Shown in pieces: positions 1,689-56,522 of a stretch of DNA of 64,000 nucleotides. Made by a program: the position numbers and the translations under genes. The notes beneath the pieces were generated by a model. It ran no database searches. It was not told the origin of the DNA and saw only the letters and a list, made by a program, of their open reading frames with translations. Position 1 is the stretch's first letter, and every line of letters begins with the position of its first letter. This stretch comes from Thermoprotei archaeon (GTDB lineage: Archaea > Thermoproteota > Thermoprotei > Thermoproteales > B15-G16): contig QMRC01000007.1 of NCBI GenBank assembly GCA_003649205.1, positions 1 through 64,000 of the forward strand, read 5' to 3'.

Positions 1689-1782
1689 GTACTCACCACG
1701 GTAAAGCTTACTGAGGTAGGTTATATTCCCTACTCACAGGAAAAATGTAGTAATACTCCTTGCTAGGTACTTATAATGTAGC

Positions 1783-3814: not shown

Positions 3815-3868
3815 TCAGCTAAGTTTGCTGACTCGTCACTAATCCGTGCTCCAGACCATCATCATCTC
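3813..3868 (-). ncRNA. C/D box sRNA candidate, probable tRNA-Trp C34 guide
   Basis: ATGATGA-tggtctggagca-CGGA-tta-GTGACGA-gtcagcaaacttag-CTGA; D' guide complementary to GCUCCAGACC (CCA anticodon loop). Confidence 0.85.
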
Positions 3869-6374: not shown

Positions 6375-6577
6375 TACTTACTGAGAACCTCCTGAATCAT
6401 CTCCTCAACTCTCTTTCTCACACCCTCTAAACCCTTCTCACGATACAGTAGGTAGAACTCCTTAGCAAGAGAAGCTACCTCACCTCTATCTTTAAACTCC
6501 TCATCAAGTACCTCAAGGACTAACCTAAGTAACGTAGTACTTCGCTCACGTCTACCCTTCTTAACCACTTTCACCAC
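6374..6577 (-). CDS. Arcadin-3-like small protein
   Basis: 67-aa helical ORF overlapping both neighbours, in the arcadin-3 position of the arcade gene order; call is positional. Confidence 0.7.
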   Translation of the reverse strand: MVKVVKKGRRERSTTLLRLVLEVLDEEFKDRGEVASLAKEFYLLYREKGLEGVRKRVEEMIQEVLSK

Positions 6578-7340
6578 CTTCCTTCGACCTCTTCCTCAAA
6601 ACCTCAACCCATGGATGATCTTTAAGGTACTCCTCCCAAAAGGTAGCACCTGAAGGTACTTCCTGAGAGACCTCAGCTGCTACCTCAACACCAGCTGCAG
6701 TCGGAGCTGTGGGTACATAGCTAGATAACTCTCTCCTAATCCTACTCAATTCCCTCTCAAGAATATCGGTAACCATTCTCCTAACATCATCTGGATGTAG
6801 TAGTGACCTCTCAATAGCCGAGATAGTACGTCTAAGCTCACTAACCTCCTTCATCAAGTTCTCAAGCCTATACTCAATATTTGCAATTCTCTCCTCAAGC
6901 TCCTCTAACCTCCTGAGATCAACAGCCGCAACCTTAGGTCTAGTAATAGGTTTTGCAGGGACTAACTCCTCTACACTACCCTTATCAAGATCGTAAACCA
7001 GTAAACCAATACCTAACTCCTTGATCAACCTACCATCTACAAGAAACCTATAGGTTATGGGTATAGCTACATAGATCTTATCTACGAAATCCCTCAACTT
7101 AGCAACACACTTCGTAGCTATTTCCCTACTAATTTCATCTCTTGAAACTCCTCTAGTCACTACGTAAATAGCAACCTTGTTCTTACCCTCCAAAAACACT
7201 AGGGTATTAGACCTCACATCAGAGAGAAGTTCAGGATTTTGGGAAATAAACTCATTAATGTCGAGAGGAACTAGGTTACGCTCTTCCCTAACCCACTTAC
7301 TAATTACGTACTTAGCCCACTCTAGCTCAGTCAATGACAT
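6561..7340 (-). CDS. Arcadin-2
   Basis: Directly downstream of crenactin; central coiled coil; C-terminal DHPWVEVLRKR resembles the crenactin-binding helix of Pyrobaculum arcadin-2 (recalled as ENEWVKILRSKR). Confidence 0.85.
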   Translation of the reverse strand: MSLTELEWAKYVISKWVREERNLVPLDINEFISQNPELLSDVRSNTLVFLEGKNKVAIYVVTRGVSRDEISREIATKCVAKLRDFVDKIYVAIPITYRFLVDGRLIKELGIGLLVYDLDKGSVEELVPAKPITRPKVAAVDLRRLEELEERIANIEYRLENLMKEVSELRRTISAIERSLLHPDDVRRMVTDILERELSRIRRELSSYVPTAPTAAGVEVAAEVSQEVPSGATFWEEYLKDHPWVEVLRKRSKEGGESG

Positions 7341-7356
7341 CGACTACATACACCAA

Positions 7357-8655
7357 CTACTTCCAACTATACCAACCCTCAAGTCTAGACCAATCCCACT
7401 TGTAATCACCTGGTAGTGCAAATCCATACACAATACATCCTCTCCAAACACTGTACTGTGGATCCTTGACCAGTGATATACTGACCTTACCCCTCATCTC
7501 AGGTAACTTCTCAGAGATCATAAGCTCTATTTTCGTTGCTGAGTCACAAGCTACATCACGTAGGTTAGGTGGTACACTCCACATGAATGCTCCACCACTG
7601 AGAATTATTCTCTCGAAGAGCCTTGACCTAATCTCAACAGGACAAACTCTAATAGCCTCAATTATCGCTGATGCTAGGTCTAATGTACCATATAGCTTCT
7701 GATCACCGATGACTATGTCCTCTATAACTAGTCTACCCTGTGATATGTAGCTCATGAACTCTTCATGACTTGGATTAAACACTATCTCACCAATGAGAAA
7801 CCTCATCCACGAATTATCACCAAGATCTATCTCAGTAACTGGATCTATCTTGACCTTAGCTCTAAACCTTTCCTTCTCCTCCTTAGCCTTCTTAATAGCC
7901 TCCTTTAAGTTCTTAGGGACTAAACCGATTTCACGCTTTACCTTCTCAACAACATACTCTTCACGAGCTAAATCACCATAACCACAATCCTTCAGTATCT
8001 CCCTAGTTATGGCATTTGCCTCAGCACCACCTCTATTTAGTGCCACAATAGCTTTCCTAATTGGGTAGTACGAGATTGGGCATATCTGTATGTTACCGTG
8101 ACCGCACTCAACAACAAGACATGTCAAGGCTTTCTCAGCTATAGCTACCGCTAGTGGCTGAGGTATTATGGTCATTGCCTTAATTAGCCTGTTGTCAAAC
8201 TCGCTATCTAGCTCCTTATGTAGTTCAAACAGCTTCTCGTACATGTACTTAGGTGCTAATGCTGAGAGAGCTGCAACAACGTAGTATCCTTTGAAGTTCG
8301 GATCTCTTGAAGCTACTGGGTAGAACTCCTCAAAGCCATACCTCGTAACTGCCTTAATTACCTTCCAAGCATCTTCGTCATCTATCTTAACTATTCCATC
8401 CCTCATAGGGTACACTAGGTTCTTAACTAAGTCCTCTCTAGAACCTAGGAACTTCGGTATCTCCTCATCACCAACAATAACGTCTCTCTCTATCTTGAAT
8501 ATCTCGTGAATAGCTGTCTTCTCCCTAATGAGGAGACCTCTGTTCTGTATCATTCTTGGATTCTCACCTATGGTTATTGGACCGTACTTGAAGTAACCTG
8601 TACCATAGTCCTCCGCATATACGTACTTCTTCCTATACTGAAGCTCAGCACCCAC
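7357..8655 (-). CDS. Crenactin (archaeal actin)
   Basis: Actin-fold motifs: phosphate-1 EDYGTGYFKYG, YPMRDG, IIPQPLAVA, phosphate-2 ECGHG, adenosine IILSGG, connect-2 QYSVWRG; GTG start with strong ribosome-binding site. Confidence 0.95.
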   Translation of the reverse strand: MGAELQYRKKYVYAEDYGTGYFKYGPITIGENPRMIQNRGLLIREKTAIHEIFKIERDVIVGDEEIPKFLGSREDLVKNLVYPMRDGIVKIDDEDAWKVIKAVTRYGFEEFYPVASRDPNFKGYYVVAALSALAPKYMYEKLFELHKELDSEFDNRLIKAMTIIPQPLAVAIAEKALTCLVVECGHGNIQICPISYYPIRKAIVALNRGGAEANAITREILKDCGYGDLAREEYVVEKVKREIGLVPKNLKEAIKKAKEEKERFRAKVKIDPVTEIDLGDNSWMRFLIGEIVFNPSHEEFMSYISQGRLVIEDIVIGDQKLYGTLDLASAIIEAIRVCPVEIRSRLFERIILSGGAFMWSVPPNLRDVACDSATKIELMISEKLPEMRGKVSISLVKDPQYSVWRGCIVYGFALPGDYKWDWSRLEGWYSWK

Positions 8656-8706: not shown

Positions 8707-9594
8707 CTACTCAACACGTGGTGCTAACATAAATAGTACGCGGCCACCACCAGGGATCTCGAATGTCAAGGTTATTGGTTTTGCTGTAGAGAACCTTATC
8801 TCAACTATGTCAGATACATCAGCCATCCTCTTGACAAAATCTATTAGGTAGTCTAGACCGTACATGGCTTCGGCTTCTTCAGTTACCTCGTACTCGAGAA
8901 ATGCCTCACTTGAGGATGGGTACCTAGCTTCCAGTGCCTTACCTCCCTCAGCAAGTGCCTTTATAATGAACTCATCGGGTGAGGCTATGAACTTCACAGC
9001 ATCAGCTATTGTGTCCGCATCTCTCAGAATTTCATCAAGTACTTCACTAGTCATCTTGACCCTAGCTGTGTACGGTATCTTTGGCTCAGGAATCTCCTCA
9101 CTAGCAACCTCAATAATTGGTATACCGAATCTCCTAACTGGAGTCTTCTTACCGGAGAGAATGATGTGGAGTCTACGTTCCTTAACCTCCATAGTCACCG
9201 TTTGCTTAGCCTTACCCCTCTTCATAATCTTGCTCAGTATATCCATGAGGATCCCTGCCCTAACAACTCCATCACACTCATACTCATCAAATACTGTGCT
9301 AGGTAGGTAGAGATCTACCAGAGCTACCTTCGATGGGTCAAGTGCTCTCAATGTCAGCGCATCTGGTGTGAAGACGAAAGTAGCTTCGTGAAGTATGCTG
9401 GCTAGTGCCTGTATCATGTACTTCCAGTCCTTTGCACTACCGAAGACGAACCTAGCGTAGGTACCTTCAGGAACCTCCTCTTTAGGTTTCTCTTCAGTAA
9501 CCTCACTAACCTCCTCAGTAACCTCTCCACTAACCTCCTCACCAACTTCCTCTGAACCTACTTCCTCACCAATACGCTCCTCGCCTTCAAACAT
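8707..9594 (-). CDS. pcn: DNA polymerase sliding clamp PCNA with acidic N-terminal extension
   Basis: ALDPSKVALVDL, YGLDYL and C-terminal FMLAPRVE PCNA motifs. Confidence 0.92.
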   Translation of the reverse strand: MFEGEERIGEEVGSEEVGEEVSGEVTEEVSEVTEEKPKEEVPEGTYARFVFGSAKDWKYMIQALASILHEATFVFTPDALTLRALDPSKVALVDLYLPSTVFDEYECDGVVRAGILMDILSKIMKRGKAKQTVTMEVKERRLHIILSGKKTPVRRFGIPIIEVASEEIPEPKIPYTARVKMTSEVLDEILRDADTIADAVKFIASPDEFIIKALAEGGKALEARYPSSSEAFLEYEVTEEAEAMYGLDYLIDFVKRMADVSDIVEIRFSTAKPITLTFEIPGGGRVLFMLAPRVE

Positions 9595-44433: not shown

Positions 44434-45873
44434 GTGATTTCAGACTTTAATCCAATGAACTTGGTAAGAAGCTTAGGGTATGTAATGAGCACTGACCTCT
44501 TCTTCGATCTCTTCGTCAAGGAGGTTGAGGAGAAGCTCACTAATGGGAATTCAGGTACTGAATTCACTATGAAGCCGAAGATACCTACCATTCTCTTCAA
44601 CGAGATCAAGAAGCTATGGGTAAGCGAACTCCCCAAGAGAACAACTAACTGCTCCATAGTAGCTGTTGATGGTGGTATAAGGTCACTAGGTCTAGAAGGT
44701 GGTAGAGAGGTAGTTATAACGAGGGCTATAGCAGTAACTAGTTCAGGTGCTAGAGCAAGACAATTAAGAGTTGAGTTAAGTAAGCTACAGGGTTTTGCTC
44801 TAAAGCTCTCACTACTTACGCAGGTAGAGTGCTCTGTTGCTCTTGAAGCTCTAGAGAAGGTACCTAATGTGGATTACTTACTTCTCGATGGTTCACTATA
44901 CTATAGAGTAGTCCATGCACTTCACAGAATTCTTAGACCTAGGGAGATAGCAGATACTTACTACCTACCTGAGCTAATCATGACCGTGACCTACGTAGCT
45001 ACCTTACTCAAGCGATGTCGCGAGCTCAACGTAGTGCCGCTATTCATAACGAAGGACTCATCATCACGAATGTTGAAGGACTACGTAATCAGCAACATAA
45101 TCTACGAGCAGCTGTACGAGAACAAGCTCCTTACAGACCTAGAGGACATCACCACGGAACTACTTTTAAAAGCACGAAACCTGTACTCAGTTACCTGGGT
45201 AAAACACTACAGAGCAAATCTCGAAAAACTTCAACAACACCTAAGAGCGGCACCTACGAATGTAGCGGAAGAACTTATACACTGTATTGAGCTATGGCTT
45301 CAACCGCACATCACAGACGTAGACTTAATTCGCTCAACAGTAACCACTATAGGTTTCTCAAGACCGCTCAACATAGGTCTCATAGATATCCACTTAGATA
45401 ACTTACTACAGGTACTTGAGAGGAGTAAGAAGAGAGTACTTGACAGGATCAGTGATGCACTCAAGATGAGAATCAATGAGGTACTAGGTAATGAGAGTTA
45501 CTGGTACACCCTACTGATGAATGCTCTCAAGACAATACCAACTCTCTACATGACGTACATACGTGTGACACCAGACGATACACCACTAGCAATTGAGATA
45601 CCTAACTTCAGATCCAGTATGGGATTCGTAGAGTTCCGAAGTAGGAGATTAAGTAGTGAACTCGAGATACTAGATCCACTTAGTATAGTTGTCAGTGGTT
45701 ACAGGAATTCAACAGTCTACAATGTATGGCTCTACTTAGCACATCAGTACGCAACCTTCAGATCAACTCAGTTCAGAAGCTACGTAAAGTACCTCGAAGC
45801 ACATCTCTCAAAGTATGGTCTTATCCTTCGAAAGAAGAGAAGAGAGAAGATGGTGGTGGCTCCTCTTGAGTGA
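44434..45873 (+). CDS. nurA: DNA double-strand break repair nuclease NurA
   Basis: VAVDGG, LLLDGSL, ITKDSSS, LYLAH; directly upstream of herA-mre11-rad50; start uncertain. Confidence 0.85.
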   Translation: MISDFNPMNLVRSLGYVMSTDLFFDLFVKEVEEKLTNGNSGTEFTMKPKIPTILFNEIKKLWVSELPKRTTNCSIVAVDGGIRSLGLEGGREVVITRAIAVTSSGARARQLRVELSKLQGFALKLSLLTQVECSVALEALEKVPNVDYLLLDGSLYYRVVHALHRILRPREIADTYYLPELIMTVTYVATLLKRCRELNVVPLFITKDSSSRMLKDYVISNIIYEQLYENKLLTDLEDITTELLLKARNLYSVTWVKHYRANLEKLQQHLRAAPTNVAEELIHCIELWLQPHITDVDLIRSTVTTIGFSRPLNIGLIDIHLDNLLQVLERSKKRVLDRISDALKMRINEVLGNESYWYTLLMNALKTIPTLYMTYIRVTPDDTPLAIEIPNFRSSMGFVEFRSRRLSSELEILDPLSIVVSGYRNSTVYNVWLYLAHQYATFRSTQFRSYVKYLEAHLSKYGLILRKKRREKMVVAPLE

Positions 45874-47899
45874 GGAGGTTGGTTATGTAGTTGGTGAGGT
45901 CACTCCCCTAGAATTTACCTTCGCTGTAAACCCCAAGACACCAGTACCTCTCTACGAGTATGTGTACTGTGAGCTAGAGGATGTACCACCTGGTGAGACC
46001 AAGCTCCATAGAGTAAAGGTCATAGCACAGGTACATGAGGTGTATCGTGTTGGTGTTGGTCTTGGCAAGAATGTACCCTATGATGTGGCTAAGAACTTAG
46101 CAGCTAGCGGTGTTGAGGTTGAGGAGATTCACCTAGCTAAGGCTAGGGTACTTGGGTATGTGTGGAGAGGTAGATTGGTAACTCCGAGGAGACCACCGAG
46201 AGCGAATACTAAGGTCTTTAGAGCACCAACTGAGCTAGTTAAGGAGCTTTACAGCGTTCCAGAGGATAGAGCACTTCACATAGGGTACCTTGTTGCTAGA
46301 CCTGAAGTACCTGTCTACCTAGATGTTGAGGGCTTGAAGAGGCACTTAGCGATAATAGCAGCTACAGGTAGTGGGAAGACTTGGTGCGCAGTGTTATTGA
46401 TTGAAGAGCTGTTGAAGAAGGGTGCCACGATAGTTGTCATAGATCCTCATGGTGAGTACGTTAAGTTGAAGGAGAAGGTTCACGTCCTAGATCCCAGACT
46501 TAGGGATAGAGTTCTTGTACTTAAAGCTTCACGAACGCAGGAAGGTGATAAGCTCTATAGAATAAAGCTCCTTCAACTAGATTCAGAAACTCTCTCAAGT
46601 ATAGCGGGTATACCACAGAATGCTCACAAGATAAGACACTGTGTGAGAGCAGCATTCAACATAGTTAAGGCAATTGCTAAGTACGTGAATAGGCCTGAGC
46701 TAGTTAACATAGGTAACTTGTTGAAGGTGCTTAGTTTCTGGAGGAGAGAACGAAATGTATCAAAGTCGAGGAAGTCAGGTAACCTATCTCCTGAACCTAT
46801 AGTTAGGAAGATGCTTCAGGAATTATTTAATCTAGGTAATTCAGATAGTGAGTTAGTTAGGAAGCTCAGTAAGTACATTGAGGATCTGTACGCAGCAACG
46901 TACCGTGATGTATCACCTTGTCTTGATGCTATCAGGTACCTAAGGTCACTTAAGAGGTATGGGGTCTACACCTCAACAACTACACCACTACACGAAATTC
47001 TTCAACCAGCTCACGTAACGATACTGAACCTCAGTGGTGTTAAGGAGGAAATACAGGACCACATCGTCTACAATGTCCTAACCAGGATATTCAATGCTAG
47101 AGTCAGGTACGTCAGAGACCTACCTGGTGAAAGGTATGAGTACCCTGTTGTCGTCTTCATTGAGGAAGCACATAGATTCGCACCACCTAAACACCGTAGT
47201 AGAAGAACTTGGAGTCAAGAGATAATCACGAGGATTGCTTCTGAAGGTAGGAAGTTCGGTGTCTACTTAGTGGTCATAACTCAGAGACCATCGAAGATAG
47301 ACTCAGATGTGCTGTCTCAATGTCAGAATCAGATCGTCCTCAAGATAGTTAATCCGAAAGATCAAGAAGCTATTAAGGATGCTAGTGAAGTGCTCTCACA
47401 GGACTTACTCATGAACTTACCTAGCCTCAACACCGGTGAAGCTATTGTTGTTGGTCCATTAACTAAAGCACCCGTAATAGTCAGGTTGAGGGATCGTATA
47501 TTACCCTACGGTGGTTCAGATATCGTGGTTAGTGAGGTATGGAGTAGAGCATTGACCTCAGTACTTCCAGATACCTCAAGTGAAGTACATGTACTTAGGA
47601 AGCTAGGTATCAACGTTGATCAAGGTACATTGAGGAAGGTAATGCCCTACCTACCGTATGTCACGTACGAGATTGATCCACTAACATTGACTATCCTCGG
47701 TAAGGTAAGTCTTGGACGTGAAGCGTATGTCGAGTATAGACTCGGTGAAGGTACATGGTACTGTTCAGCATGTAGACATAGCATTCAACCATGTGTACAC
47801 GTACTAGCACTCCTGCTAAAAGTTATAGCTTCTAAGGATATAAAATTACTTGAGAGAGAAGTGGTGCAGAACAATGGTAACGATAGCACACCTAGCTGA
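45866..47899 (+). CDS. herA: HerA helicase/translocase with C-terminal SWIM-like zinc finger
   Basis: HAS barrel VGYVVGE, RHLAIIAATGSGKT, IDPHGEY, FIEEAH, EGRKFG, TQRP; tail WYCSAC-x6-CVH. Confidence 0.93.
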   Translation: MSEEVGYVVGEVTPLEFTFAVNPKTPVPLYEYVYCELEDVPPGETKLHRVKVIAQVHEVYRVGVGLGKNVPYDVAKNLAASGVEVEEIHLAKARVLGYVWRGRLVTPRRPPRANTKVFRAPTELVKELYSVPEDRALHIGYLVARPEVPVYLDVEGLKRHLAIIAATGSGKTWCAVLLIEELLKKGATIVVIDPHGEYVKLKEKVHVLDPRLRDRVLVLKASRTQEGDKLYRIKLLQLDSETLSSIAGIPQNAHKIRHCVRAAFNIVKAIAKYVNRPELVNIGNLLKVLSFWRRERNVSKSRKSGNLSPEPIVRKMLQELFNLGNSDSELVRKLSKYIEDLYAATYRDVSPCLDAIRYLRSLKRYGVYTSTTTPLHEILQPAHVTILNLSGVKEEIQDHIVYNVLTRIFNARVRYVRDLPGERYEYPVVVFIEEAHRFAPPKHRSRRTWSQEIITRIASEGRKFGVYLVVITQRPSKIDSDVLSQCQNQIVLKIVNPKDQEAIKDASEVLSQDLLMNLPSLNTGEAIVVGPLTKAPVIVRLRDRILPYGGSDIVVSEVWSRALTSVLPDTSSEVHVLRKLGINVDQGTLRKVMPYLPYVTYEIDPLTLTILGKVSLGREAYVEYRLGEGTWYCSACRHSIQPCVHVLALLLKVIASKDIKLLEREVVQNNGNDSTPS

Positions 47900-49202
47900 T
47901 GCGCATCTAGGCTTTAGACAGTATGGGCTACCTGAAAGAGCTAGTGACTTCGCTAAATCATTCCACAGGGCAGTCGATGAGATAGTGGAGAGGAGAGCTG
48001 ACATAGACCTAGTACTGATAGTTGGTGATCTATTCCACAGCAAGAGACCTAGTCCAGAGACAATTCGTGAAGCTGTTATTGGTCTTAAGAAGCTCAGAGA
48101 AGCGAATATACCGGTCATAGTGACAAGAGGCAATCACGACGCGCCATACTCGCAAGGCAGCAACAATGTGTTGACTCTCCTCTCTGAGCTAGGTTTAGTC
48201 AAGTACATAGATTATGGAAGAGTAGAGATTAGTGGGATCGAAATCATAGCATGTGGTTGTACACCAACAGCGTATACAAGAGCACTAGAGAACTACTTGA
48301 GACAAGTAGTTAGCTTAGAGAAGGGACAACGTATCCTCCTACTTCACCAGGTTATTGAGGGTATAGAGCAAAATTACCCAAATGACCCGTATGTAGTACC
48401 ATTAGATGTAGTTAAGGAATTTGCTACGAAATTCAACTACATAGCTCTAGGTCATGTACATACCTTCGCACTGAAGCACCCTCAATTACCTGCATACTAC
48501 TCCGGATCACTAGATATCTGGGATATCTCTGAATTCGAGACATACATCATGAAGTCTAGCAAGACCTTAGTTAAGGAACGTGACATGAGTGAGAAGGGTT
48601 TCCTCATAGTTCATGTAGATGGTGGAATTGAGGTAGAGAGAGTAAGACTTAGACCTAGTAGGAGGATGATTAGAGCAGTTCTCGCTTACAGTAATGAGGT
48701 GAAGCCTAGTGAAGTAATGAGGGATCTTATATCGGTAGCTCACGAGCTAGATAGGGAAGATGCTGTTGTTGTGATCGAGTTGCTAGGTAATCTAGTACCT
48801 GGTTCGAGTAGGCATGAGCTAAATTTGAAGGAGGTGAGGAAGTACTTTAGAAGAGTTCTCAAACTCGATATCAGGAATAGGCTGGGTGTAGTTACGTCGA
48901 CTACAGATGGTAAAGTAGTAGACATATCGTCACTGAGTTTAGAGTCGCTTCTCAGGAGTTCATTCCTGAAATACTTCAGCAACGTAGCTAAGTCAATTGC
49001 TCTAGATCCTCAGTTCCTAAGTGAGTTAGCTATGAAATTGCTCGATCTCCTAGCTCAAGGTAAGACTAGAGAAGCCCTCTACGTATTGTATAGAGAGTTG
49101 GGTGTTGATACAGGTACTGTATCGATTCCGAGTATCAGTACCTCTACTTCAGCTCCCTCTAGAAGGGGTAGGGAATCCACGATATTAGATTGGTTGAGGT
49201 GA
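47874..49202 (+). CDS. mre11: Mre11 nuclease
   Basis: ADAHLG, GDLFH, GNHD, LLHQ, LGHVH, YSGS. Confidence 0.95.
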   Translation: MVTIAHLADAHLGFRQYGLPERASDFAKSFHRAVDEIVERRADIDLVLIVGDLFHSKRPSPETIREAVIGLKKLREANIPVIVTRGNHDAPYSQGSNNVLTLLSELGLVKYIDYGRVEISGIEIIACGCTPTAYTRALENYLRQVVSLEKGQRILLLHQVIEGIEQNYPNDPYVVPLDVVKEFATKFNYIALGHVHTFALKHPQLPAYYSGSLDIWDISEFETYIMKSSKTLVKERDMSEKGFLIVHVDGGIEVERVRLRPSRRMIRAVLAYSNEVKPSEVMRDLISVAHELDREDAVVVIELLGNLVPGSSRHELNLKEVRKYFRRVLKLDIRNRLGVVTSTTDGKVVDISSLSLESLLRSSFLKYFSNVAKSIALDPQFLSELAMKLLDLLAQGKTREALYVLYRELGVDTGTVSIPSISTSTSAPSRRGRESTILDWLR

Positions 49203-49212
49203 GGGACTTACC

Positions 49213-51633
49213 TTGATCATTAGGTTAGAGGTAGAGAACTGGAGGTCCTACATAAGGGCCAGTGCTACGTTTACTGAAGGAATAACGTTTGTACATGGTG
49301 TTAATGGTGCTGGTAAGACATCTCTCCTAGAAGCTATAGCATATGCTCTCTACGGTTCTAGGTGGTTAAGGTTAGCGAGGAGGGAAGGTGAGGAGAGGTT
49401 AAGTGATCTCCAGAGGAGGGGTTCCAGTATTACTAAGGTTAGGTTGTGGTTTAGAGCACCTAGTGGTGAGGTGTATGTTGTTCAGAGGTGTATCGTGGGT
49501 GGTAGATCTCAACGAGATAGTACGTACCTAATGGATTCTAGAGGTAGGAGATTAGCTATTGGTGATGAGGAGGTTACTGAAGCTATTGAGAGGATAACTG
49601 GTATATCCTGTAGGGCGTTTAGGGAACTCCTCTACGTTAGGCAGGGTGAGCTGAAGGATATTCTAAAGGAGAGACGGAGAGAGAAGCTGGATGAGCTACT
49701 TAGGATCAAGGATCTGGAGAAGGCTAAGGACTCTATGAGGGATGTTATCTCGAAGCTAGATACAGCACTTAGGTTAACGATCCAGGAACTAAGTCAGGTA
49801 GAGCACCTCATTCGTGAGTACGAGAATAGGGTTCTAGATATCTCTAAGAAGATGGATGGGTTAGTTAAGTTGATTGAGGAGTATAGGACTAGAGTTAGTT
49901 CCATTGAGAGTAGACTTGAGGAGATGAAGAAACGTGAGGAGGAGTTGAGGAGTTATCGTGAGAGGATTCAGAATCTAAGACTCGAGGTAGCTAACTTAAG
50001 GACTGTTAGGGAGAGGTACATTTCTGAGATAAGGGTTCTAGAGGGTGAGCTTCAACGGGTTAAGGAGTTAAGGGATGAAGTTGAGAGGTTAGCTCGAGAA
50101 TTGCAGAGAGCATCTGAACTTGAGCAGAGATTACGTAGCTTGAGAGAACAGGAGAAGCAATTGCTCAATCTCCTCGGTGAGTACACGTACCTACTCAACC
50201 AAGTTAAGGAGTATGAAAAGCTGCTTAGTGAGGTCAATAGGCTTAGAGATGAGTATGAGAAGTGCAGTCAGGAGCTTAGATTGCTAGAGAGTGAGAGGAG
50301 TAAGCTACTTCAACAACTCTCATTAATTAGGAAGTTTGAGGAGGAGTATAGTGAACTACTTAAGCGTAGAGCTCAGCTAGAGCAGGAACTGAGTATTCTA
50401 CGTAATTTTGTAGATAATTTGGAGGGATCTAGGGTAGCTACGTGCCCTCTCTGTGAAAGAGAGATTAGTAGTGAGTACAGGGAATTGATTCTAAAGAGAA
50501 AGAGGAAGAGAATTGAGGAGTTGAAGAATACTCTAACTGACTTATCTAAGCGTATTCAGGAGATTGAGCAGTCACTTAAGCAACGAGATGAGCTTCTCTC
50601 TAGACTACTGAATGTCGAGCAGTGTATAGCTAGTGCTCGATCTAGGTTGCAGGAACTGGAGAGTAAGCTACGTGAGCTAAGTGATCTACAGAAGCAGGTA
50701 CAGAGTATGTATGAGAAGATTAAGACTCTTGAGGGTAAGTTAAGTGAGTTAGAGAGAATTCGAGATGACATAACTCAGCTAGAGCGTGAAGCTGGTAGAG
50801 TACAGGAACTGAGAGAGAGATTGAGTTCTTTAATGCAGGAGCTATCTAGGGAGCGTGTACTCGAGCAGAAAATAGCGGAGCTAAGGGAGAGGGTAAGTGA
50901 GGTTACGGAACTAATTGAGTGTAAAGAACGTGAGGTTAAGTCTCTACTCACTAAATTCAATGAGGAGGAGTACACTAACTTACAGAGTAGTATTCAGCAT
51001 CTTGAGGAGGAGCTTGTGAGGTCTAAATCAGAGCTAAGTAGGCTAGAGGGTGAACTAAAGTCCTACCATGAACAACTATCCGAAGCCAAGAGGAAGTTAA
51101 GTGAACTCGAGAAGAGACGAGAAGAGTTAATCAGGAAGAGGCAGAACCTCGAGCGGGTACTCGCAGTAGCCTCTCTGATAAGGAGGTCGTACGACGAGAT
51201 CAAGCCAATGCTTAGGTCATTGGTCATCGAAGCAATAAACATGGAAGCAGAGAACCTGTTCAATCAACTTAAACACAAGAAAAACTATGAGAGTATCGAG
51301 ATATCACCTGATTACGAGGTGTATATACGTGATAGATCAGGTGCTAAGTACCTTATCGACTACTGTTCTGAAGGTGAGAAGACACTCATAGCACTGGTCC
51401 TCAGATATGCACTAGCAAAGGTACTCATAGGTGAAACACCCATATTAATTCTTGACGAACCAACAGAACACCTAGATAGAGAGCATAGAGCAAGACTCAT
51501 CAGGTGGTTAAGCACCTGTGAGTGGGCTAGACAACTAATAGTGACATCTCACATAGATGAGTTCAGTCAAGTAGCAAACAACGTAGTGGAGGTAAGAGTA
51601 AGAGAAGACGGCGTATCAGAGGTAATTCAGTGA
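49213..51633 (+). CDS. rad50: Rad50 ATPase
   Basis: GVNGAGKT, Q-loop YVRQ, zinc hook CPLC, CSEGE, ILDEPT, VTSH. Confidence 0.95.
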   Translation: MIIRLEVENWRSYIRASATFTEGITFVHGVNGAGKTSLLEAIAYALYGSRWLRLARREGEERLSDLQRRGSSITKVRLWFRAPSGEVYVVQRCIVGGRSQRDSTYLMDSRGRRLAIGDEEVTEAIERITGISCRAFRELLYVRQGELKDILKERRREKLDELLRIKDLEKAKDSMRDVISKLDTALRLTIQELSQVEHLIREYENRVLDISKKMDGLVKLIEEYRTRVSSIESRLEEMKKREEELRSYRERIQNLRLEVANLRTVRERYISEIRVLEGELQRVKELRDEVERLARELQRASELEQRLRSLREQEKQLLNLLGEYTYLLNQVKEYEKLLSEVNRLRDEYEKCSQELRLLESERSKLLQQLSLIRKFEEEYSELLKRRAQLEQELSILRNFVDNLEGSRVATCPLCEREISSEYRELILKRKRKRIEELKNTLTDLSKRIQEIEQSLKQRDELLSRLLNVEQCIASARSRLQELESKLRELSDLQKQVQSMYEKIKTLEGKLSELERIRDDITQLEREAGRVQELRERLSSLMQELSRERVLEQKIAELRERVSEVTELIECKEREVKSLLTKFNEEEYTNLQSSIQHLEEELVRSKSELSRLEGELKSYHEQLSEAKRKLSELEKRREELIRKRQNLERVLAVASLIRRSYDEIKPMLRSLVIEAINMEAENLFNQLKHKKNYESIEISPDYEVYIRDRSGAKYLIDYCSEGEKTLIALVLRYALAKVLIGETPILILDEPTEHLDREHRARLIRWLSTCEWARQLIVTSHIDEFSQVANNVVEVRVREDGVSEVIQ

Positions 51634-53799: not shown

Positions 53800-54219
53800 A
53801 TGAATATTAGATGGGACTCTAGTGGACTAGGATTTACATGGACTATAGGTATTGTAGGTACAGGTATCCTACGTGGTAGGGTAAGGAGGGTCAGTACTAG
53901 GAATGGCGTACGAATAGTGCGGTCAGTGTACCTTGTACCAAAGAGGTCGTTAAGAGATGATGCTGGTGAGGAATTACTTACAGAGTGGTATGAACCGCAG
54001 GAATTCAGTAAGCTAGTCGACGCAGAACTCAAGTTGCTCTCCATAGTGCTTGAAGAAAGAAGTAGATCAGGCGACCCTGTTCAGGAGATTAAGCTCGCAC
54101 TTGCTGACTTGGAGAAGCTCCTCAATCAAGTTGCCCTCCTTAAAGCTAGATTGGAGAAGTTATTGGAGGTGGTGAGTTATGGGAGGAAGGAGGAGAACTC
54201 AAACCACAACTCAAACTAG
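53800..54219 (+). CDS. Hypothetical protein, beta-rich basic N-domain plus C-terminal leucine zipper
   Basis: GGAGGTGA site before ATG 53800; overlaps the radA start. Confidence 0.7.
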   Translation: MNIRWDSSGLGFTWTIGIVGTGILRGRVRRVSTRNGVRIVRSVYLVPKRSLRDDAGEELLTEWYEPQEFSKLVDAELKLLSIVLEERSRSGDPVQEIKLALADLEKLLNQVALLKARLEKLLEVVSYGRKEENSNHNSN

Positions 54220-55222
54220 CTCACAGGTTCAGCAGGTAAGTGAACAGAGATCTGGAGTACAGGAGCTTAAGGTAGTCAGGATACCAATCGAGGAGTTACC
54301 TAACACGACGAGAGCTACCATAGAGAAGTTGAAGAGTGCAGGTATCTACAGCGTTCAGCATCTCTCAATGTTTACGGTAGATGAGCTAGTTATGTACGAT
54401 GTGACGCCGGAGACAGCAGCTAGGTTACTGAGAAAAGCAAGAGCACTACTCAAGAGTGAACCACGAGTATTCTCACTCAAGGAGTTCTCAAACTACAAGA
54501 GTTCACTACCTAGAGTGAGGATTCACGTAAATGCTATAGACAACATGTTGGGAGGAGGTCTAGAACCTAGAGCTATCTACGAATTTGCTGGTGAATTCGG
54601 TGCTGGCAAGACACAGCTTTGTCATCAACTAGCTGTCACAGTTCAACTAAGCTACGATAGAGGTGGCGTAGCAGGAGCGGCGCTGTACATAGATACTGAA
54701 GGTACCTTTACACCCTCTAGAATAAAGTCAATAGCAGAGAGATTTGGGCTAGATCTCGACTACGTATTCTCAAACATCTACGTAACACAACCGAAGACTG
54801 TTGACGATTTACTTGAGTGTATTAGGACAGATGTCGTTAGGTACGTAGAGGACCACAACGTCAAGCTAATAATAGTTGACTCATTAATAGGTCTCTTCAG
54901 AGCTGAGTACCCTGGAAGGGAGAATCTAGCTCTAAGACAGCAGAGACTGAACTACGCTCTAGACTGGCTCTCGAGAGTAGCCAAGACCTACAACATCTTC
55001 GTAGTGATCACGAATCAGGTAATGGATGTACCAATGGGATTTGGTTCACAGAAACCAGCTGGTGGAAACATCATGGCACATGGTGCAACACATAGATTCC
55101 TACTATACAAAGTCGGTAGGGAATCAGGTCTAAGAGCAATGGAAGTGCTTGACTCACCAGCACTACCTGAGGGACTTACTGTCAAGTTCAGAATAACTGA
55201 AAGAGGGTTAGAGGATGTCTAG
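54179..55222 (+). CDS. radA: RadA/Rad51-family recombinase (divergent full-length form)
   Basis: N-terminal HhH domain, GEFGAGKTQ, YIDTEGTF, IIVDS, FRAEYPGRENLALRQQ, TNQV, GGNIMAH. Confidence 0.9.
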   Translation: MGGRRRTQTTTQTSSQVQQVSEQRSGVQELKVVRIPIEELPNTTRATIEKLKSAGIYSVQHLSMFTVDELVMYDVTPETAARLLRKARALLKSEPRVFSLKEFSNYKSSLPRVRIHVNAIDNMLGGGLEPRAIYEFAGEFGAGKTQLCHQLAVTVQLSYDRGGVAGAALYIDTEGTFTPSRIKSIAERFGLDLDYVFSNIYVTQPKTVDDLLECIRTDVVRYVEDHNVKLIIVDSLIGLFRAEYPGRENLALRQQRLNYALDWLSRVAKTYNIFVVITNQVMDVPMGFGSQKPAGGNIMAHGATHRFLLYKVGRESGLRAMEVLDSPALPEGLTVKFRITERGLEDV

Positions 55223-55556
55223 AGTAGACATACCACCAAAGATACTGCAGAAGTTCAGAGAGATGTTTCCGAATAAGAGTACATCGTGGATAAGGAGGTG
55301 CATAGCGAGATTACCAGATGTCGTTGAGGGTAAGGTAAGAGGTGTCTGGTTTGTTCGTGGTAATGCTAAGCTTGGTGATGCGTATTCACAGTACATAGTG
55401 AAGTACATTGCTGGTAAGTACATGTGTAGCTGTATGGAGAGAGAAAGACCGTACCACAGTAGGAGAAGAAAGGAGCTGTGCACACATGTTGGTGCGGTAA
55501 TCCTGTATAGGTTACTGAAGGGTGAGACTATATGCGAGACAGAGGTCTCATCCTGA
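55215..55556 (+). CDS. SWIM zinc-finger protein
   Basis: YMCSC-x15-CTH followed by VGAVIL helix. Confidence 0.85.
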   Translation: MSRVDIPPKILQKFREMFPNKSTSWIRRCIARLPDVVEGKVRGVWFVRGNAKLGDAYSQYIVKYIAGKYMCSCMERERPYHSRRRKELCTHVGAVILYRLLKGETICETEVSS

Positions 55557-56023
55557 TCTACGGTAATCCAAAGAGGATACTGAAGAAGCTAGTAACAGCA
55601 CTACAGAGAGAATCTGCACTACTGTTAACCGATAGCGAGAACTATGCAGCAGTACCATATGAGGAAAGCGATCTCAAGATAGCTATTGTCGATGTATTAG
55701 AGCATGTACCTGAGGTACTGAGTAAGGAAGCTAGAAAGGTAAACGTAGTGTGCACACCATCAATACTCAGCAAGGTTGTTAGAGAGTTCTACAGCTACGT
55801 AAGGAGTTCACCTAGTGGAAGTTACCTAGGAATATACTACGTCAAGCTACTTAGAGAGGTTCTCGAAAGAATTCGAGCAATAACGTACTCGAGAAGGTTA
55901 CTCACAATTGTCGTAGCACCTTCACGAATAAATCCAGTAACAGGTCAGGAGTACCCTGTACTACATTGGTTAGTTCAGAGGTACTTCGATGAGGTACTTC
56001 ATGAACAACACGTGATGGTGTGA
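55532..56023 (+). CDS. Truncated, inactive RecA-fold (RadB-like) protein
   Basis: GLILIYG without the GKT loop, LLLTDSE, VCTPSI at the Walker B position, IRAITYSRRLLTIVV, YPVLHWLVQRYFDEVL. Confidence 0.6.
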   Translation: MRDRGLILIYGNPKRILKKLVTALQRESALLLTDSENYAAVPYEESDLKIAIVDVLEHVPEVLSKEARKVNVVCTPSILSKVVREFYSYVRSSPSGSYLGIYYVKLLREVLERIRAITYSRRLLTIVVAPSRINPVTGQEYPVLHWLVQRYFDEVLHEQHVMV

Positions 56024-56024
56024 G

Positions 56025-56522
56025 GTGATTGATCTGTCTAAGGCGGGGAAGAACAACACAGTCGACATATACATATGTCCAATATGTGGTAAGACTTTCA
56101 GCAAGGAAAGCAGTTTAGCGCATCACATAACTAGAGCACATGGAACATACAAGCTAATTGTTGATGCAGGTAAATTCATCACTAGATTAGAGAAGGTTGA
56201 GAGAACACTCGCTAGAGTAGAGAGAGCAGTATCTCAACTACTTGAGCAAATTAAAACCCTAAATGGTAAGCTTGAGGAAGTCTCAACATCGATATCCGAG
56301 CTACAGAAGCAATTACAGGAGGTACCTCAGATAACGGTCATGGCTCCTAAAGTAACACTTGTAACTCAAGAAGCTAAGGCACTGAAGACCGAATTAGCTA
56401 CATCAATCAAGAGACTTGACCTACATAGCGCAGACACCATAGAGATACCAGACTACATCCTGGACAATCCATGGTTAAAAGTTCTCCAGCAAAAACCAAG
56501 AGAAGGCAACTTAAATTCCTAA
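56025..56522 (+). CDS. C2H2 zinc finger plus coiled coil plus arcadin-2-like C-terminal peptide
   Basis: YICPICGKTF-x5-LAHHITRAH, heptads, C-terminal DYILDNPWLKVLQQK. Confidence 0.85.
   Translation: MIDLSKAGKNNTVDIYICPICGKTFSKESSLAHHITRAHGTYKLIVDAGKFITRLEKVERTLARVERAVSQLLEQIKTLNGKLEEVSTSISELQKQLQEVPQITVMAPKVTLVTQEAKALKTELATSIKRLDLHSADTIEIPDYILDNPWLKVLQQKPREGNLNS

What the first reader, a model, noticed from the sequence alone, without database searches (positions are those of the whole stretch)
56025..56522. Second crenactin-binding-type tail on a zinc-finger protein that ends the recombination cluster
Seen: C-terminus DYILDNPWLKVLQQK (about 56451-56495) aligns without gaps to the arcadin-2 C-terminus EYLKDHPWVEVLRKR encoded 50 kb away (Y, D, P, W, V, L identical; five more conservative). 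Both proteins share the layout putative nucleic-acid-binding head, coiled coil, flexible linker, terminal helix. Established: the arcadin-2 C-terminal helix binds the crenactin hydrophobic cleft like eukaryotic WH2-type peptides and blocks polymerisation. Inference: the helix is a portable actin-binding module, and this protein couples DNA or the recombination machinery to the actin cytoskeleton or remodels it after DNA damage.
Basis: partly seen in the sequence, partly recalled or inferred. Interest (0 to 1): 0.9.

Follow-up and report, generated by a model that had tools for sequence, protein, structure and literature searches.

The report
Portable crenactin-binding tail on DNA-binding proteins
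The last gene of this archaeon's DNA-recombination cluster encodes a small zinc-finger protein ending in the short helix that arcadin-2 uses to grip the archaeal actin crenactin, and that helix is a reusable tag found on many DNA-binding proteins only where crenactin exists.

Summary
The 165-aa ORF 56025-56522 (+) has a C2H2 finger, a long helix, a disordered linker and the tail EIPDYILDNPWLKVLQQK. That tail matches the arcadin-2 tail encoded beside crenactin (6561-7340, 7357-8655). [YFW]xxD[NHDQ]PW occurs 5 times in 10,690 six-frame ORFs of the genome, always 10-19 residues from the stop (0.2 expected). The other carriers have HTH, RHH or unassigned heads. Profile comparison aligns the ZnF and arcadin-2 families only over coiled-coil end, linker and tail (E 5.8e-16). 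In 401 genomes of the phylum, 136 have both tail and crenactin, 1 the tail only, 3 crenactin only and 261 neither. A complex model puts W150 in crenactin's groove (0.88 against 0.02 for the best control), but the solved arcadin-2 complex may explain that pass. The radA-SWIM-like-(x)-ZnF-tail operon recurs in four families of the class. Best reading: a ParR-like adaptor linking DNA or the recombination machinery to crenactin. Binding and function are untested. Four literature searches found no report of this tail outside arcadin-2.

The parts
56025..56522 (+). ZnF-coiled-coil-tail gene (165 aa, GTG start 1 nt after the stop of the upstream ORF)
   Evidence: ORF list. The same start is used in database proteins P0001 and P0002.
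56070..56141 (+). C2H2 zinc finger, residues 16-39 (C18, C21, H34, H39; C-x2-C-x12-H-x4-H)
   Evidence: Pfam zf-C2H2 28.6 bits against a cut-off of 25.2. C18, C21 and H34 are invariant in 7 orthologues. The model shows a beta-beta-alpha fold. The family profile matches Zif268, CTCF and PRDM9 fingers in the PDB.
56166..56321 (+). Long helix, residues 48-99, presumed coiled coil
   Evidence: AF2 helix 48-99 with pLDDT above 90. Its end aligns with the arcadin-2 helix in hhalign. Oligomerisation was not tested.
56322..56441 (+). Variable, disordered linker, residues 100-139
   Evidence: pLDDT below 50 for residues 104-137. Length and sequence are not conserved among 7 orthologues. Only 6 of 17 residues (123-139) are identical to the 79%-identical orthologue, against 17 of 17 in the tail.
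56442..56495 (+). Crenactin-binding-type tail E140-K157 (EIPDYILDNPWLKVLQQK)
   Evidence: Motif scan. P142, N148, P149, W150, V153 and L154 are invariant in orthologues. The complex model places W150 and L154 in the crenactin groove.
6561..7340 (-). Arcadin-2 orthologue (259 aa), with tail E237-R251 at 6588-6632
   Evidence: It lies next to crenactin and has the tail. 16 orthologues were aligned. The N-domain fold resembles XisH and restriction endonucleases.
7357..8655 (-). Crenactin (432 aa)
   Evidence: Pfam Actin. E 2.1e-150 to PDB 4CJ7/5LY3/5MW1 crenactin.
54179..55222 (+). radA (347 aa), first gene of the conserved radA-SWIM-like-x-ZnF operon
   Evidence: Pfam Rad51 5.7e-65. Synteny in G059, G018, G019, G028, G029 and G058.
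55215..55556 (+). 113-aa CxC...CxH (SWIM-like) protein, overlapping radA by 8 nt
   Evidence: ORF. No Pfam hit. Conserved after radA in 5 other genomes. The SWIM label is recalled from the motif and was not tested.
55532..56023 (+). 163-aa protein of unknown family between the SWIM-like and ZnF genes
   Evidence: ORF. No Pfam hit. By sequence it was found only in the same genus; ORFs of 149-187 aa occupy the same position in G028, G029 and G058.
44434..51633 (+). nurA-herA-mre11-rad50 genes heading the same co-directional array
   Evidence: Pfam NurA, HerA (DUF87, HAS-barrel), Metallophos and SMC_N/AAA_23.

Best explanation
The gene encodes a small modular adaptor. An N-terminal single C2H2 zinc finger provides nucleic-acid binding (inferred). 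A roughly 50-residue helix probably dimerises as a coiled coil (inferred). A disordered linker follows, and then a C-terminal amphipathic helix, (E)hP(D/S)(F/Y)hxDNPWhxhL. This helix is homologous to the arcadin-2 tail. It inserts its Trp and Leu into the hydrophobic groove of crenactin between subdomains IA and IIA. Insertion is shown experimentally for Pyrobaculum arcadin-2 and only modelled here. In a filament that groove is filled by the D-loop of the next subunit. The tail can therefore hold only crenactin monomers or the terminal subunits at one filament end, as ParR does on ParM. The coiled-coil-linker-tail cassette is a portable module. In this genome it is fused to five different heads. 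Across crenactin-bearing archaea it is fused mostly to DNA-binding domains. This ZnF version is the last gene of a conserved radA operon. It most likely tethers DNA, or the RadA/Mre11-Rad50 recombination machinery, to crenactin, or recruits and locally controls crenactin there. Whether the outcome is anchoring or pushing (ParR-like) or local sequestration and depolymerisation (as arcadin-2 does in vitro) cannot be decided from sequence.
For: Homology of the tail: 5 motif hits in the genome, all C-terminal, against 0.2 expected. The profile of the 5 tails scores 57-66 bits on each, and the next hit scores 15.6 bits. hhalign of the ZnF family against the arcadin-2 family gives probability 98.6% and E 5.8e-16. 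The alignment covers only the helix end, linker and tail.

Constraint: the tail is 17/17 identical to the 79%-identical orthologue, while the adjacent linker is 6/17 identical. P142, N148, P149, W150, V153 and L154 are invariant in 7 orthologues from 4 families, whereas the linker varies in length.

Portability: heads confirmed by Pfam are C2H2, HTH_23/Sigma70_r4_2 and RHH_1. Of the top 150 of 258 significant clusters in 1.84 billion proteins, 142 of the 149 that carry the core motif have it within 20 residues of the C-end. The commonest Pfam families are HTH_23 (16), Sigma70_r4_2 (14), GerE (13), RHH_1 (6) and zf-C2H2 (4).

Co-occurrence: in 401 genomes, 136 have both, 1 the tail only, 3 crenactin only and 261 neither. 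Patchy families agree genome by genome: f21 14/17, f25 8/17, f31 1/8. The 3 crenactin-only genomes carry a weaker tail next to crenactin. The HTH-tail family was found in 5 of 5 crenactin-positive genomes from 5 families, and in 0 of 9 (f4) and 0 of 3 (f5) genomes of crenactin-less families.

Binding model: ipSAE 0.88, 0.88 and 0.89 against a best control of 0.02. That mark was reached by 58 of 80 solved complexes and 2 of 110 mismatched pairs. The runs agree in at least 95% of contacts and the partner's pLDDT is 68. W150 touches crenactin residues 172, 175, 177, 409, 410 and 413, and L154 touches 409-415.

Recombination link: radA-SWIM-like-(x)-ZnF-tail synteny occurs in G059, G018, G019, G028, G029 and G058. 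The gene ends an 11-gene co-directional array that starts with nurA-herA-mre11-rad50.
Against: There are no binding or functional data for any non-arcadin tail. The complex model may pass from memory of the solved crenactin:arcadin-2 peptide structure 5LY3, and the alignments I supplied were not part of the tool's calibration.

Most of the genome-level co-occurrence comes from arcadin-2 itself, which is physically linked to crenactin. Extra tails are concentrated in one class: 32 of 56 hit genomes there have 2-5 matches, against 3 of 81 elsewhere. Independent evolutionary events are therefore few.

One genome (G378, 98% complete) has a tail ORF but no detectable crenactin.

The radA-linked ZnF-tail gene was not found next to radA in the 8 genomes examined from families f2 and f3.

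A single C2H2 finger often does not bind DNA specifically by itself.

The only activity shown for this tail type is depolymerisation and sequestration, not anchoring.

After the helix the ZnF tail has QQK where most tails have S/R-R/K-R/K.
Confidence: 0.68

Rival explanations
1. G-crenactin-sensing transcription factors (MRTF/RPEL-like logic). The tail binds monomeric crenactin, and this occupancy controls the activity or localisation of the DNA-binding head. The ZnF, HTH, RHH and wHTH proteins would then be regulators that read the monomer pool rather than tethers. The ZnF protein would tune expression of the radA operon to cytoskeletal state.
For: Nearly all heads are typical transcription-factor folds: HTH_23, Sigma70_r4_2, GerE, RHH_1, C2H2 and wHTH. 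The groove is free only on monomers and at one filament end, and arcadin-2 forms a tight 1:1 complex with monomers (Izore 2016 passages). The ZnF gene is the terminal gene of the operon it might autoregulate.
Against: No operator repeats were sought or found. The arcadin-2 head is nuclease-like rather than TF-like. One genus puts the tail on a membrane protein. Some family members carry 2-3 tandem tails. These last two features fit recruitment or nucleation better than sensing. No expression data exist (no RNA holder listed).
Confidence: 0.17
2. A pure crenactin antagonist. Like arcadin-2 in vitro, the ZnF protein only sequesters monomers or caps and depolymerises filaments. It would be co-expressed with recombination genes to dismantle the cytoskeleton during DNA repair, and the head would play no tethering role.
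For: The arcadin-2 tail alone depolymerises crenactin filaments and makes crenactin monomeric (Izore 2016 passages). The ZnF tail is predicted to occupy the same groove.
Against: This does not explain why the tail is almost always joined to a nucleic-acid-binding head through a long helix and linker, conserved across families. Five or more parallel sequesterers in one genome would be redundant.
Confidence: 0.08
3. The tail has another or additional partner, such as DNA through its basic end, another arcade protein, or self-association. Its resemblance to the arcadin-2 tail would then not imply crenactin binding in the paralogues.
For: Binding was never measured for a non-arcadin tail. One tail-bearing ORF occurs in a genome without detectable crenactin (G378). 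The helix is followed by a basic stretch in most copies.
Against: Tail presence follows crenactin in 397 of 401 genomes (136 both, 261 neither), or 400 of 401 with the relaxed threshold. In family f3 both arcadin-2 and the paralogous HTH tails lost the Pro, together with a K-to-N change at the predicted contact residue 175 of crenactin; this is one clade only. The unrelated-protein controls scored 0.00-0.02.
Confidence: 0.05
4. Chance similarity of two short C-terminal peptides.
Against: Five C-terminal occurrences against 0.2 expected. Profile-profile E 5.8e-16. 258 clusters worldwide, with the motif at the C-end.
Confidence: 0.01

Closest known systems
Arcadin-2 (arcade cluster; Ettema 2011, recalled; Izore et al. 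2016, eLife 5:e21600, passages read)
   Same: Homologous coiled-coil end, linker and C-terminal helix with the conserved D-N-x-W-h-x-h-L core. Predicted to use the same groove of crenactin.
   Different: The head is a C2H2 finger, not the arcadin-2 alpha/beta (XisH/restriction-endonuclease-like) domain. The gene lies 47 kb from crenactin, in a radA operon and not in the arcade cluster. It is not an arcadin-2 orthologue.
ParR / ParM (plasmid R1 ParMRC; PDB 4A62, as cited by Izore 2016)
   Same: A DNA-binding head plus a C-terminal helix that inserts into the hydrophobic groove of an actin-like protein, in the same orientation as arcadin-2. One of this genome's tail proteins even has ParR's RHH fold.
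   Different: There is no sequence homology, no adjacent actin gene and no centromere repeats identified. The partner is the chromosomal, F-actin-like crenactin rather than a plasmid ParM. The link is functional analogy only.
WH2 / thymosin beta4 / RPEL motifs of eukaryotes
   Same: A short helix binding the same 'hot spot' cleft of actin, used as a portable module. Tandem copies occur in some tail proteins, with 2-3 tails in P0004, P0005, P0008 and P0009, as in Spire or Cobl (recalled).
   Different: The orientation is reversed relative to thymosin beta4 and there is no LKKT/V motif. These are unrelated sequences. In eukaryotes such motifs are rarely fused to DNA-binding domains, MRTF being the nearest case (recalled).
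Classical C2H2 zinc fingers (Pfam PF00096)
   Same: C-x2-C-x12-H-x4-H, beta-beta-alpha fold and a Pfam score above the cut-off.
   Different: A single finger followed by a coiled coil and an actin-binding tail. I know of no described C2H2 protein with this architecture.

Membership tests
Arcadin-2 | Conserved C-terminal helix separated from the core by a non-conserved linker (Izore 2016) | tested here: met
   Tail alignment of 43 sequences: W invariant, N and L at least 90% conserved. hhalign E 5.8e-16 over helix end, linker and tail. Disordered linker.
Arcadin-2 | Arcadin-2 N-terminal core domain | tested here: not met
   hhalign aligns nothing N-terminal of profile column 63. The head is a C2H2 finger, whereas the arcadin-2 head is XisH/endonuclease-like.
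Arcadin-2 | Gene adjacent to crenactin in the arcade cluster | tested here: not met
   The ZnF gene is at 56025-56522 and crenactin at 7357-8655, about 47 kb apart. The true arcadin-2 is at 6561-7340.
Arcadin-2 | Binds the crenactin hydrophobic groove and depolymerises filaments | not testable with these tools
   Only a model exists: ipSAE 0.88 against a best control of 0.02 (58 of 80 solved complexes and 2 of 110 mismatched pairs reach the mark). It is possibly from memory of 5LY3.
C2H2 zinc finger (PF00096) | C-x2-4-C-x12-H-x3-5-H with a beta-beta-alpha fold | tested here: met
   28.6 bits against a cut-off of 25.2. C18, C21 and H34 invariant. Strands at 16-17 and 24-25 and helix 28-39 in the model. 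PDB finger matches.
ParR-type centromere adaptor | N-terminal DNA-binding domain plus C-terminal helix in the actin-like groove | tested here: inconclusive
   The architecture is analogous. DNA binding and groove binding were not measured.
ParR-type centromere adaptor | Encoded with its actin-like ATPase and a repeat centromere | tested here: not met
   The gene is not adjacent to crenactin. No centromere-like repeats were searched for at this locus.
WH2 / thymosin beta4 | Amphipathic helix followed by LKKT/V, N-to-C orientation as in thymosin | tested here: not met
   There is no LKKT/V in the tail. Izore 2016 states the thymosin orientation is reversed relative to arcadin-2.
Crenactin (for ORF 7357-8655) | Close sequence relation to the solved P. 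calidifontis crenactin | tested here: met
   E 2.1e-150 over residues 6-428 to 4CJ7/5LY3/5MW1. Pfam Actin.

The most novel reading that the evidence does not exclude
Crenactin is not only a shape or division filament. It is the motor or track of an archaeal DNA-handling system served by a whole family of ParR-like adaptors: HTH, RHH, ZnF, wHTH and nuclease-like arcadin-2, plus membrane-anchored and tandem-tail nucleator-like forms. All share one portable groove-binding tail. The radA-operon ZnF member would bring broken or recombining DNA onto actin filaments. That would be an archaeal counterpart, and possible forerunner, of actin-driven movement of DNA breaks and chromosomes in eukaryotes.
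Probability: 0.25. Interest if true: 0.95.

Novelty: new variant of a known kind. Interest (0 to 1): 0.8.

Why it matters
The cellular role of crenactin, the prokaryotic filament most like eukaryotic F-actin, is still unsettled. A 2024 survey states that the experiments were inconclusive and that the functions of arcadins 1, 3 and 4 remain unclear (passage read). Only one crenactin-binding peptide is known, and it has been read as a sequesterer.

Two findings change what can be tested. The same peptide is a portable tag on dozens of DNA-binding protein families. One of these families is a conserved member of the radA operon. Together they give a concrete list of candidate crenactin clients. 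They point to DNA segregation, repair or gene regulation as the function. They also make the question testable with peptides, pull-downs, ChIP and reconstitution.

The work also supplies a sequence signature, (L/I/V)P(D/S/E)(F/Y)hxDNPWhxhL near a C-terminus, for annotating such proteins. It offers an archaeal parallel to modular WH2/RPEL-type actin-binding motifs.

Tried and rejected
- **Word-based homologue search.** The search with the whole ZnF protein found only 3 proteins (itself, a 79% orthologue and a fragment). This wrongly suggested a genus-specific gene. Six-frame searches of the class with the N-terminal 105 aa then found orthologues in other families.
- **Weak C2H2 hits.** Most weak hits (E 0.001-0.01) in families f2, f3 and f4 are unrelated finger proteins without a tail and not beside radA. 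One example is a CBS-domain protein in G009. I rejected them as orthologues.
- **Virus search.** The search for related loci with the tail alignment on viral contigs returned an error because it found no sufficiently conserved stretch. A strict degenerate DNA pattern for the tail then found 0 viral contigs. This is no evidence of absence, because the pattern demands the full PxFhxDNPWhxhL.
- **Expression.** No RNA holder is listed, so nothing can be said about expression.
- **Neighbours of the other tail genes.** The HTH-tail gene lies between aEF-2 and a DUF72 gene, which is uninformative. The RHH-tail gene has neighbours with no Pfam match.
- **The 31.5-kb contig of G053 that encodes a tail protein.** Of 10 ORFs scanned against Pfam, 8 had no match at E 0.001 and 2 had matches (Rce1-like, weak DUF1771) that say nothing of plasmid or virus. 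I could not call it a plasmid or a virus.
- **Sixth weak tail hit in the genome.** C6:79894-79938, 15.6 bits, in a 34-aa frame. Rejected as noise.
- **Radial link between radA and the arcade cluster in Pyrobaculum.** A RadA-like match beside arcadin-4 appears in G099. In 5 complete f3 genomes the radA matches lie far from crenactin, so I did not pursue it.
- **Supplements of papers.** These were closed. The arcadin-2 alignment of Izore 2016 (Figure 3-figure supplement 1) was not seen and might show more of the tail's known conservation.
Full report
**What is there**

The window is contig C7:1-64000 of a 2.07-Mb, 31-contig archaeal genome with 43% G+C. ORF 56025..56522 (+) encodes 165 aa. Pfam finds a C2H2 finger at residues 16-39, scoring 28.6 bits against a cut-off of 25.2. 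An AlphaFold2 model built on 7 orthologues shows:
- a beta-beta-alpha finger;
- one long helix, residues 48-99, with pLDDT above 90;
- a disordered stretch, residues 104-137;
- two short helices, 143-146 and 149-154.

The C-terminal sequence is EIPDYILDNPWLKVLQQKPREGNLNS.

At 6561..7340 (-) there is a 259-aa ORF ending FWEEYLKDHPWVEVLRKRSKEGGESG. It lies directly beside a 432-aa actin-family ORF at 7357..8655 (-). That ORF matches the solved Pyrobaculum calidifontis crenactin (4CJ7/5LY3/5MW1) at E 2.1e-150. The two ORFs are therefore crenactin and its arcadin-2.

**Is the match more than chance?**

Yes. The motif [YFW]xxD[NHDQ]PW occurs five times among 10,690 six-frame ORFs of at least 50 aa in the genome. 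All five lie 10-19 residues before the stop. Composition predicts 0.2 occurrences. One hundred shuffles gave at most 2 anywhere and at most 1 near a C-end.

The five carriers are:
- arcadin-2;
- the ZnF protein;
- a 209-aa protein on C12 with an HTH_23/Sigma70_r4_2 head (E 1e-9);
- a 139-aa protein on C16 with a CopG-type RHH head (E 3.6e-9);
- a 198-aa protein on C8 with no Pfam match.

A profile of the five tails scores 57-66 bits on each of them. The next hit in the genome scores 15.6 bits. A profile-profile comparison of the ZnF family (7 sequences) with the arcadin-2 family (16 sequences) gives probability 98.6% and E 5.8e-16. The alignment covers only the end of the long helix, the linker and the tail. 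The heads do not align.

**The tail is a conserved, portable module**

Across the window's class (120 genomes) the five-tail profile hit 80 genomes. The ORFs recovered include arcadin-2 orthologues next to crenactin. They also include many proteins elsewhere in the genomes:
- a widespread sigma-70-region-4-like HTH family;
- C2H2 fingers;
- winged-helix proteins;
- RHH proteins;
- an AbrB/MazE-like protein.

The consensus is E-(L/V/I)-P-(D/S/E)-(F/Y)-h-(R/K)-D-N-P-W-h-x-h-L-(S/R)-(R/K)-(R/K). The ZnF tail fits this consensus better than the window's own arcadin-2 does.

In Pyrobaculum and Thermoproteus (family f3) the arcadin-2 tail reads ...(D/E)NEWV(R/K)(I/L)LR(S/R)(R/K). This is the type that Izore et al. 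crystallised in crenactin's groove. It shares the D/E-N-x-W-h-x-h-L core with the window's tails.

In the library of 1.84 billion cluster representatives, 258 proteins match the 43-tail profile at E of 0.001 or less. Of the best 150:
- 149 have the core motif;
- 142 of those 149 have it ending within 20 residues of the C-terminus;
- 6 carry two or three tandem tails.

The Pfam families found most often on them are HTH_23 (16), Sigma70_r4_2 (14), GerE (13), RHH_1 (6), zf-C2H2 (4), PSV_ORF131-like (3) and VAPB_antitox (3).

The arcadin-2 head itself models as an alpha/beta domain. Its best structural neighbours are XisH proteins (E 2.5e-5, TM 0.59 on the target). These are followed by restriction endonucleases, EndoMS, tRNA-splicing endonuclease and Hjc at E 0.009-0.11. 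Its head is therefore also plausibly nucleic-acid binding. The label 'PD-(D/E)XK-like' is my own and is recalled.

**Does the tail go with crenactin?**

I searched an even sample of 401 genomes of the phylum with the tail profile at E of 0.001 or less (137 genomes hit) and with crenactin at E of 1e-20 or less (139 genomes hit). Comparing the two printed lists gives:

| Tail | Crenactin | Genomes |
|---|---|---|
| yes | yes | 136 |
| yes | no | 1 |
| no | yes | 3 |
| no | no | 261 |

Families with patchy distribution agree genome by genome: f21 14/17, f25 8/17, f28 5/6, f30 23/24 and f31 1/8. Large families without crenactin have no tail: f16 0/56, f18 0/16, f26 0/25, f33 0/15 and f27 0/12.

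The 3 crenactin-only genomes (one genus, g91) do have a weaker tail...DAAKDNPWAGILSDRK (E 0.013-0.05). It sits at the end of a 395-437-aa protein with several hydrophobic segments, encoded next to crenactin.

The single tail-only genome is G378 (98% complete). It has an 86-aa helix-plus-tail ORF on a small contig, and no crenactin even with a 23-sequence profile.

There are two caveats:
- Most of this signal is arcadin-2, which is linked to crenactin.
- Extra tails are concentrated in the window's class. There, 32 of 56 hit genomes have 2-5 matches, against 3 of 81 elsewhere.

As a separate check on a non-arcadin family, I searched with the HTH head alone. It was found once in each of 5 of 5 crenactin-positive genomes from five families, always in the ORF that carries a tail (compared). 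It was not found in 0 of 9 and 0 of 3 genomes of the two crenactin-less families of the class.

**Does this tail fit crenactin?**

The one complex job used the window's crenactin (alignment of 23) and the last 33 residues of the ZnF protein (alignment of 43 tails). The results were:
- scores of 0.88, 0.88 and 0.89, against 0.02, 0.00 and 0.00 for three controls;
- the mark is reached by 58 of 80 solved complexes and 2 of 110 mismatched pairs;
- the runs share at least 95% of contacts, and the partner's pLDDT is 68.

W150 touches crenactin residues 172, 175, 177, 409, 410 and 413. L154 touches 409-415.

Izore et al. equate crenactin Q164 with actin Q137; I take the window's invariant Q166 as its counterpart from the two-residue offset, which I did not test by alignment. 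Using this offset and my recalled list of actin cleft residues, these positions correspond to Y143, A144, G146, T148, I345, L346 and L349 of actin. That is the hydrophobic cleft between subdomains 1 and 3. This mapping is recalled, not computed.

Because the crenactin:arcadin-2 peptide complex (5LY3) is solved, the pass may reflect likeness to it. It supports binding but does not show it.

One further observation is consistent with a shared partner. In family f3 both arcadin-2 and the paralogous tails lack the Pro: DNEW, RNAW and DNVW. In every f3 crenactin examined (13 rows, counting two sequences twice), the predicted contact residue 175 is N. It is K or R in the other 20 crenactins examined. 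This is a single clade and so a single event.

**Genomic setting**

The ZnF gene starts 1 nt after the preceding stop. It ends a tightly packed array on the + strand:
- NurA (44434-45873);
- HerA (45815-47899);
- Mre11-type phosphoesterase (47850-49202);
- Rad50-type SMC (49213-51633);
- three ORFs without Pfam matches;
- RadA (54179-55222);
- a 113-aa CxC...CxH protein (55215-55556);
- a 163-aa protein (55532-56023);
- the ZnF gene.

Orthologues of the ZnF-helix-tail protein were found by six-frame search. In each case they lie just downstream of radA:

| Genome | Family | Arrangement |
|---|---|---|
| G059 | f1 (same genus) | full four-gene arrangement |
| G018, G019 | f8 | radA, SWIM-like, ZnF |
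| G028, G029 | f11 | radA, SWIM-like, 149-164-aa ORF, ZnF |
| G058 | f15 | radA, 187-aa ORF, ZnF |

In these 7 proteins the finger ligands (C18, C21, H34) and six tail residues are invariant, while the linker varies from about 10 to about 45 residues. Against the 79%-identical orthologue the tail is 17/17 identical and the preceding 17 linker residues are 6/17 identical.

The arrangement was not found beside radA in 5 genomes of f2 and 3 of f3.

**Mechanism and what is inferred**

*Shown elsewhere.* The arcadin-2 tail binds the groove in a tight complex (Kd 31 nM for crenactin:arcadin-2), competes with the D-loop, depolymerises filaments, and lies in ParR's orientation (Izore 2016, passages).

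*Shown here:*
- homology and portability of the tail cassette;
- its C-terminal position;
- purifying constraint on the tail;
- co-occurrence with crenactin;
- the conserved radA operon;
- a favourable complex model.

*Inferred:*
- The ZnF tail binds crenactin.
- The long helix oligomerises.
- The finger binds nucleic acid.
- The protein thereby links DNA or the recombination machinery to crenactin.

The groove is exposed only on monomers and at one filament end. An oligomer with two or more tails could hold the end of the two-stranded filament as ParR does, or it could sequester monomers locally. Sequence cannot decide between these.

The main rival is that these proteins are monomer-sensing transcription factors. 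A pure antagonist role, another partner and chance rank lower, for the reasons given under the rivals.

**Novelty**

Four full-text searches were run: 'arcadin-2' plus 'crenactin' (30 papers); 'crenactin' plus 'arcadin' plus 'helix-turn-helix' (4 papers); 'crenactin' from 2021 onward (37 papers); and 'crenactin-binding', 'arcadin-2-like' and 'crenactin-interacting' (0 occurrences).

I saw no listed title or abstract start, in the 20, 2 and 32 papers the three lists showed, that describes this tail outside arcadin-2. I read passages of only two papers:
- Izore 2016, whose main text has 0 occurrences of 'DNA-binding';
- the 2024 ESCRT survey, which calls the experiments inconclusive and the functions of arcadins 1, 3 and 4 unclear.

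Ettema 2011 is recalled and was not read. Subscription journals and supplements were not searchable. I rate the finding a new variant of a known kind: the known crenactin-groove peptide reused on new, mostly DNA-binding, proteins.

**Verdict**

Interest is high, because the finding gives crenactin a list of candidate clients and a testable link to DNA recombination.

Noticed in passing
window 8707-9594 (-): A PCNA homologue (PCNA_N 1.5e-14, PCNA_C 4.5e-9) with an acidic N-terminal extension of about 45 residues is encoded directly upstream of crenactin. It sits where Pyrobaculum has arcadin-1 (the arcadin-1 position is seen loci as a ~120-aa ORF).
   Followed up: no
window 3867-6374 (-) and 27-2439 (-): A Rad50/SMC-like protein with a weak zinc-hook match (arcadin-4-like) lies downstream of arcadin-2 on the same strand, followed by two long coiled-coil proteins (553 aa and 218 aa). 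The window therefore holds two Rad50-like genes, one in the arcade cluster and one in the nurA-herA-mre11-rad50 array.
   Followed up: partly
L002 6996-8259 (= G000:C8:36995-38258, -): The 198-aa tail protein on contig C8 lies 281 nt upstream, on the same strand, of a 128-aa ORF matching the archaeal Holliday-junction resolvase family Hjc (25.5 bits against a cut-off of 21.1). This is a second tail protein next to a recombination gene.
   Followed up: partly
L192 6000-12000 (G053:C2, a 31.5-kb second contig of a two-contig genome): A 132-aa tail protein (8952-9350) is encoded on a small separate contig that carries 5 copies of the palindrome GCCACAAAATTTTGTGGC within 4 kb. Of 10 ORFs scanned, 8 had no Pfam match and 2 had matches (Rce1-like, weak DUF1771) that do not type the element. 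It may be an extrachromosomal element with its own crenactin adaptor and binding sites.
   Followed up: partly
proteins P0004, P0005, P0007, P0008, P0009, P0014: Six of the top 150 tail proteins carry 2-3 tandem tails spaced about 33-40 residues apart. Four of them have a zinc-ribbon plus winged-helix head. They resemble tandem WH2 nucleators. The arcadin-2 of G053 also has two tail matches in one ORF.
   Followed up: partly
L188, L189, L190 (G246, G374, G309; genus g91): In this genus the gene next to crenactin encodes a 395-437-aa protein with several hydrophobic, membrane-like segments, a coiled coil and a divergent tail (DAAKDNPWAGILSDRK). A von Willebrand-like gene follows it. This looks like a membrane-anchored crenactin binder.
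   Followed up: partly
crenactin residue 175 (window 8131-8133, -): The predicted tail-contact residue is K or R in the 20 crenactins examined from lineages with DNPW tails. It is N in all 13 rows from family f3, where tails read DNEW, RNAW or DNVW. This is one clade and so one event.
   Followed up: partly
L187 1315-1575 (G378:C4): An 86-aa helix-plus-tail ORF (…LPDFVTGNPWISVIRGRGDVR) occurs in a 98%-complete genome in which neither the crenactin protein nor a crenactin profile finds a match. It is the only tail without crenactin among 401 genomes.
   Followed up: partly
L156 2871-3233 (G099:C61): A RadA-like match (39% identity over 122 aa) lies just beyond the arcadin-4-like gene of a Pyrobaculum-type arcade cluster. 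In 5 complete genomes of the family the radA matches lie far from crenactin.
   Followed up: partly
top-150 tail proteins (alignment A7): Three tail proteins carry the Pfam domain PSV_ORF131-like, named after a Pyrobaculum spherical virus protein. This hints that viruses or virus-derived genes use the tail. A strict DNA pattern found no match in the viral contig collection.
   Followed up: partly
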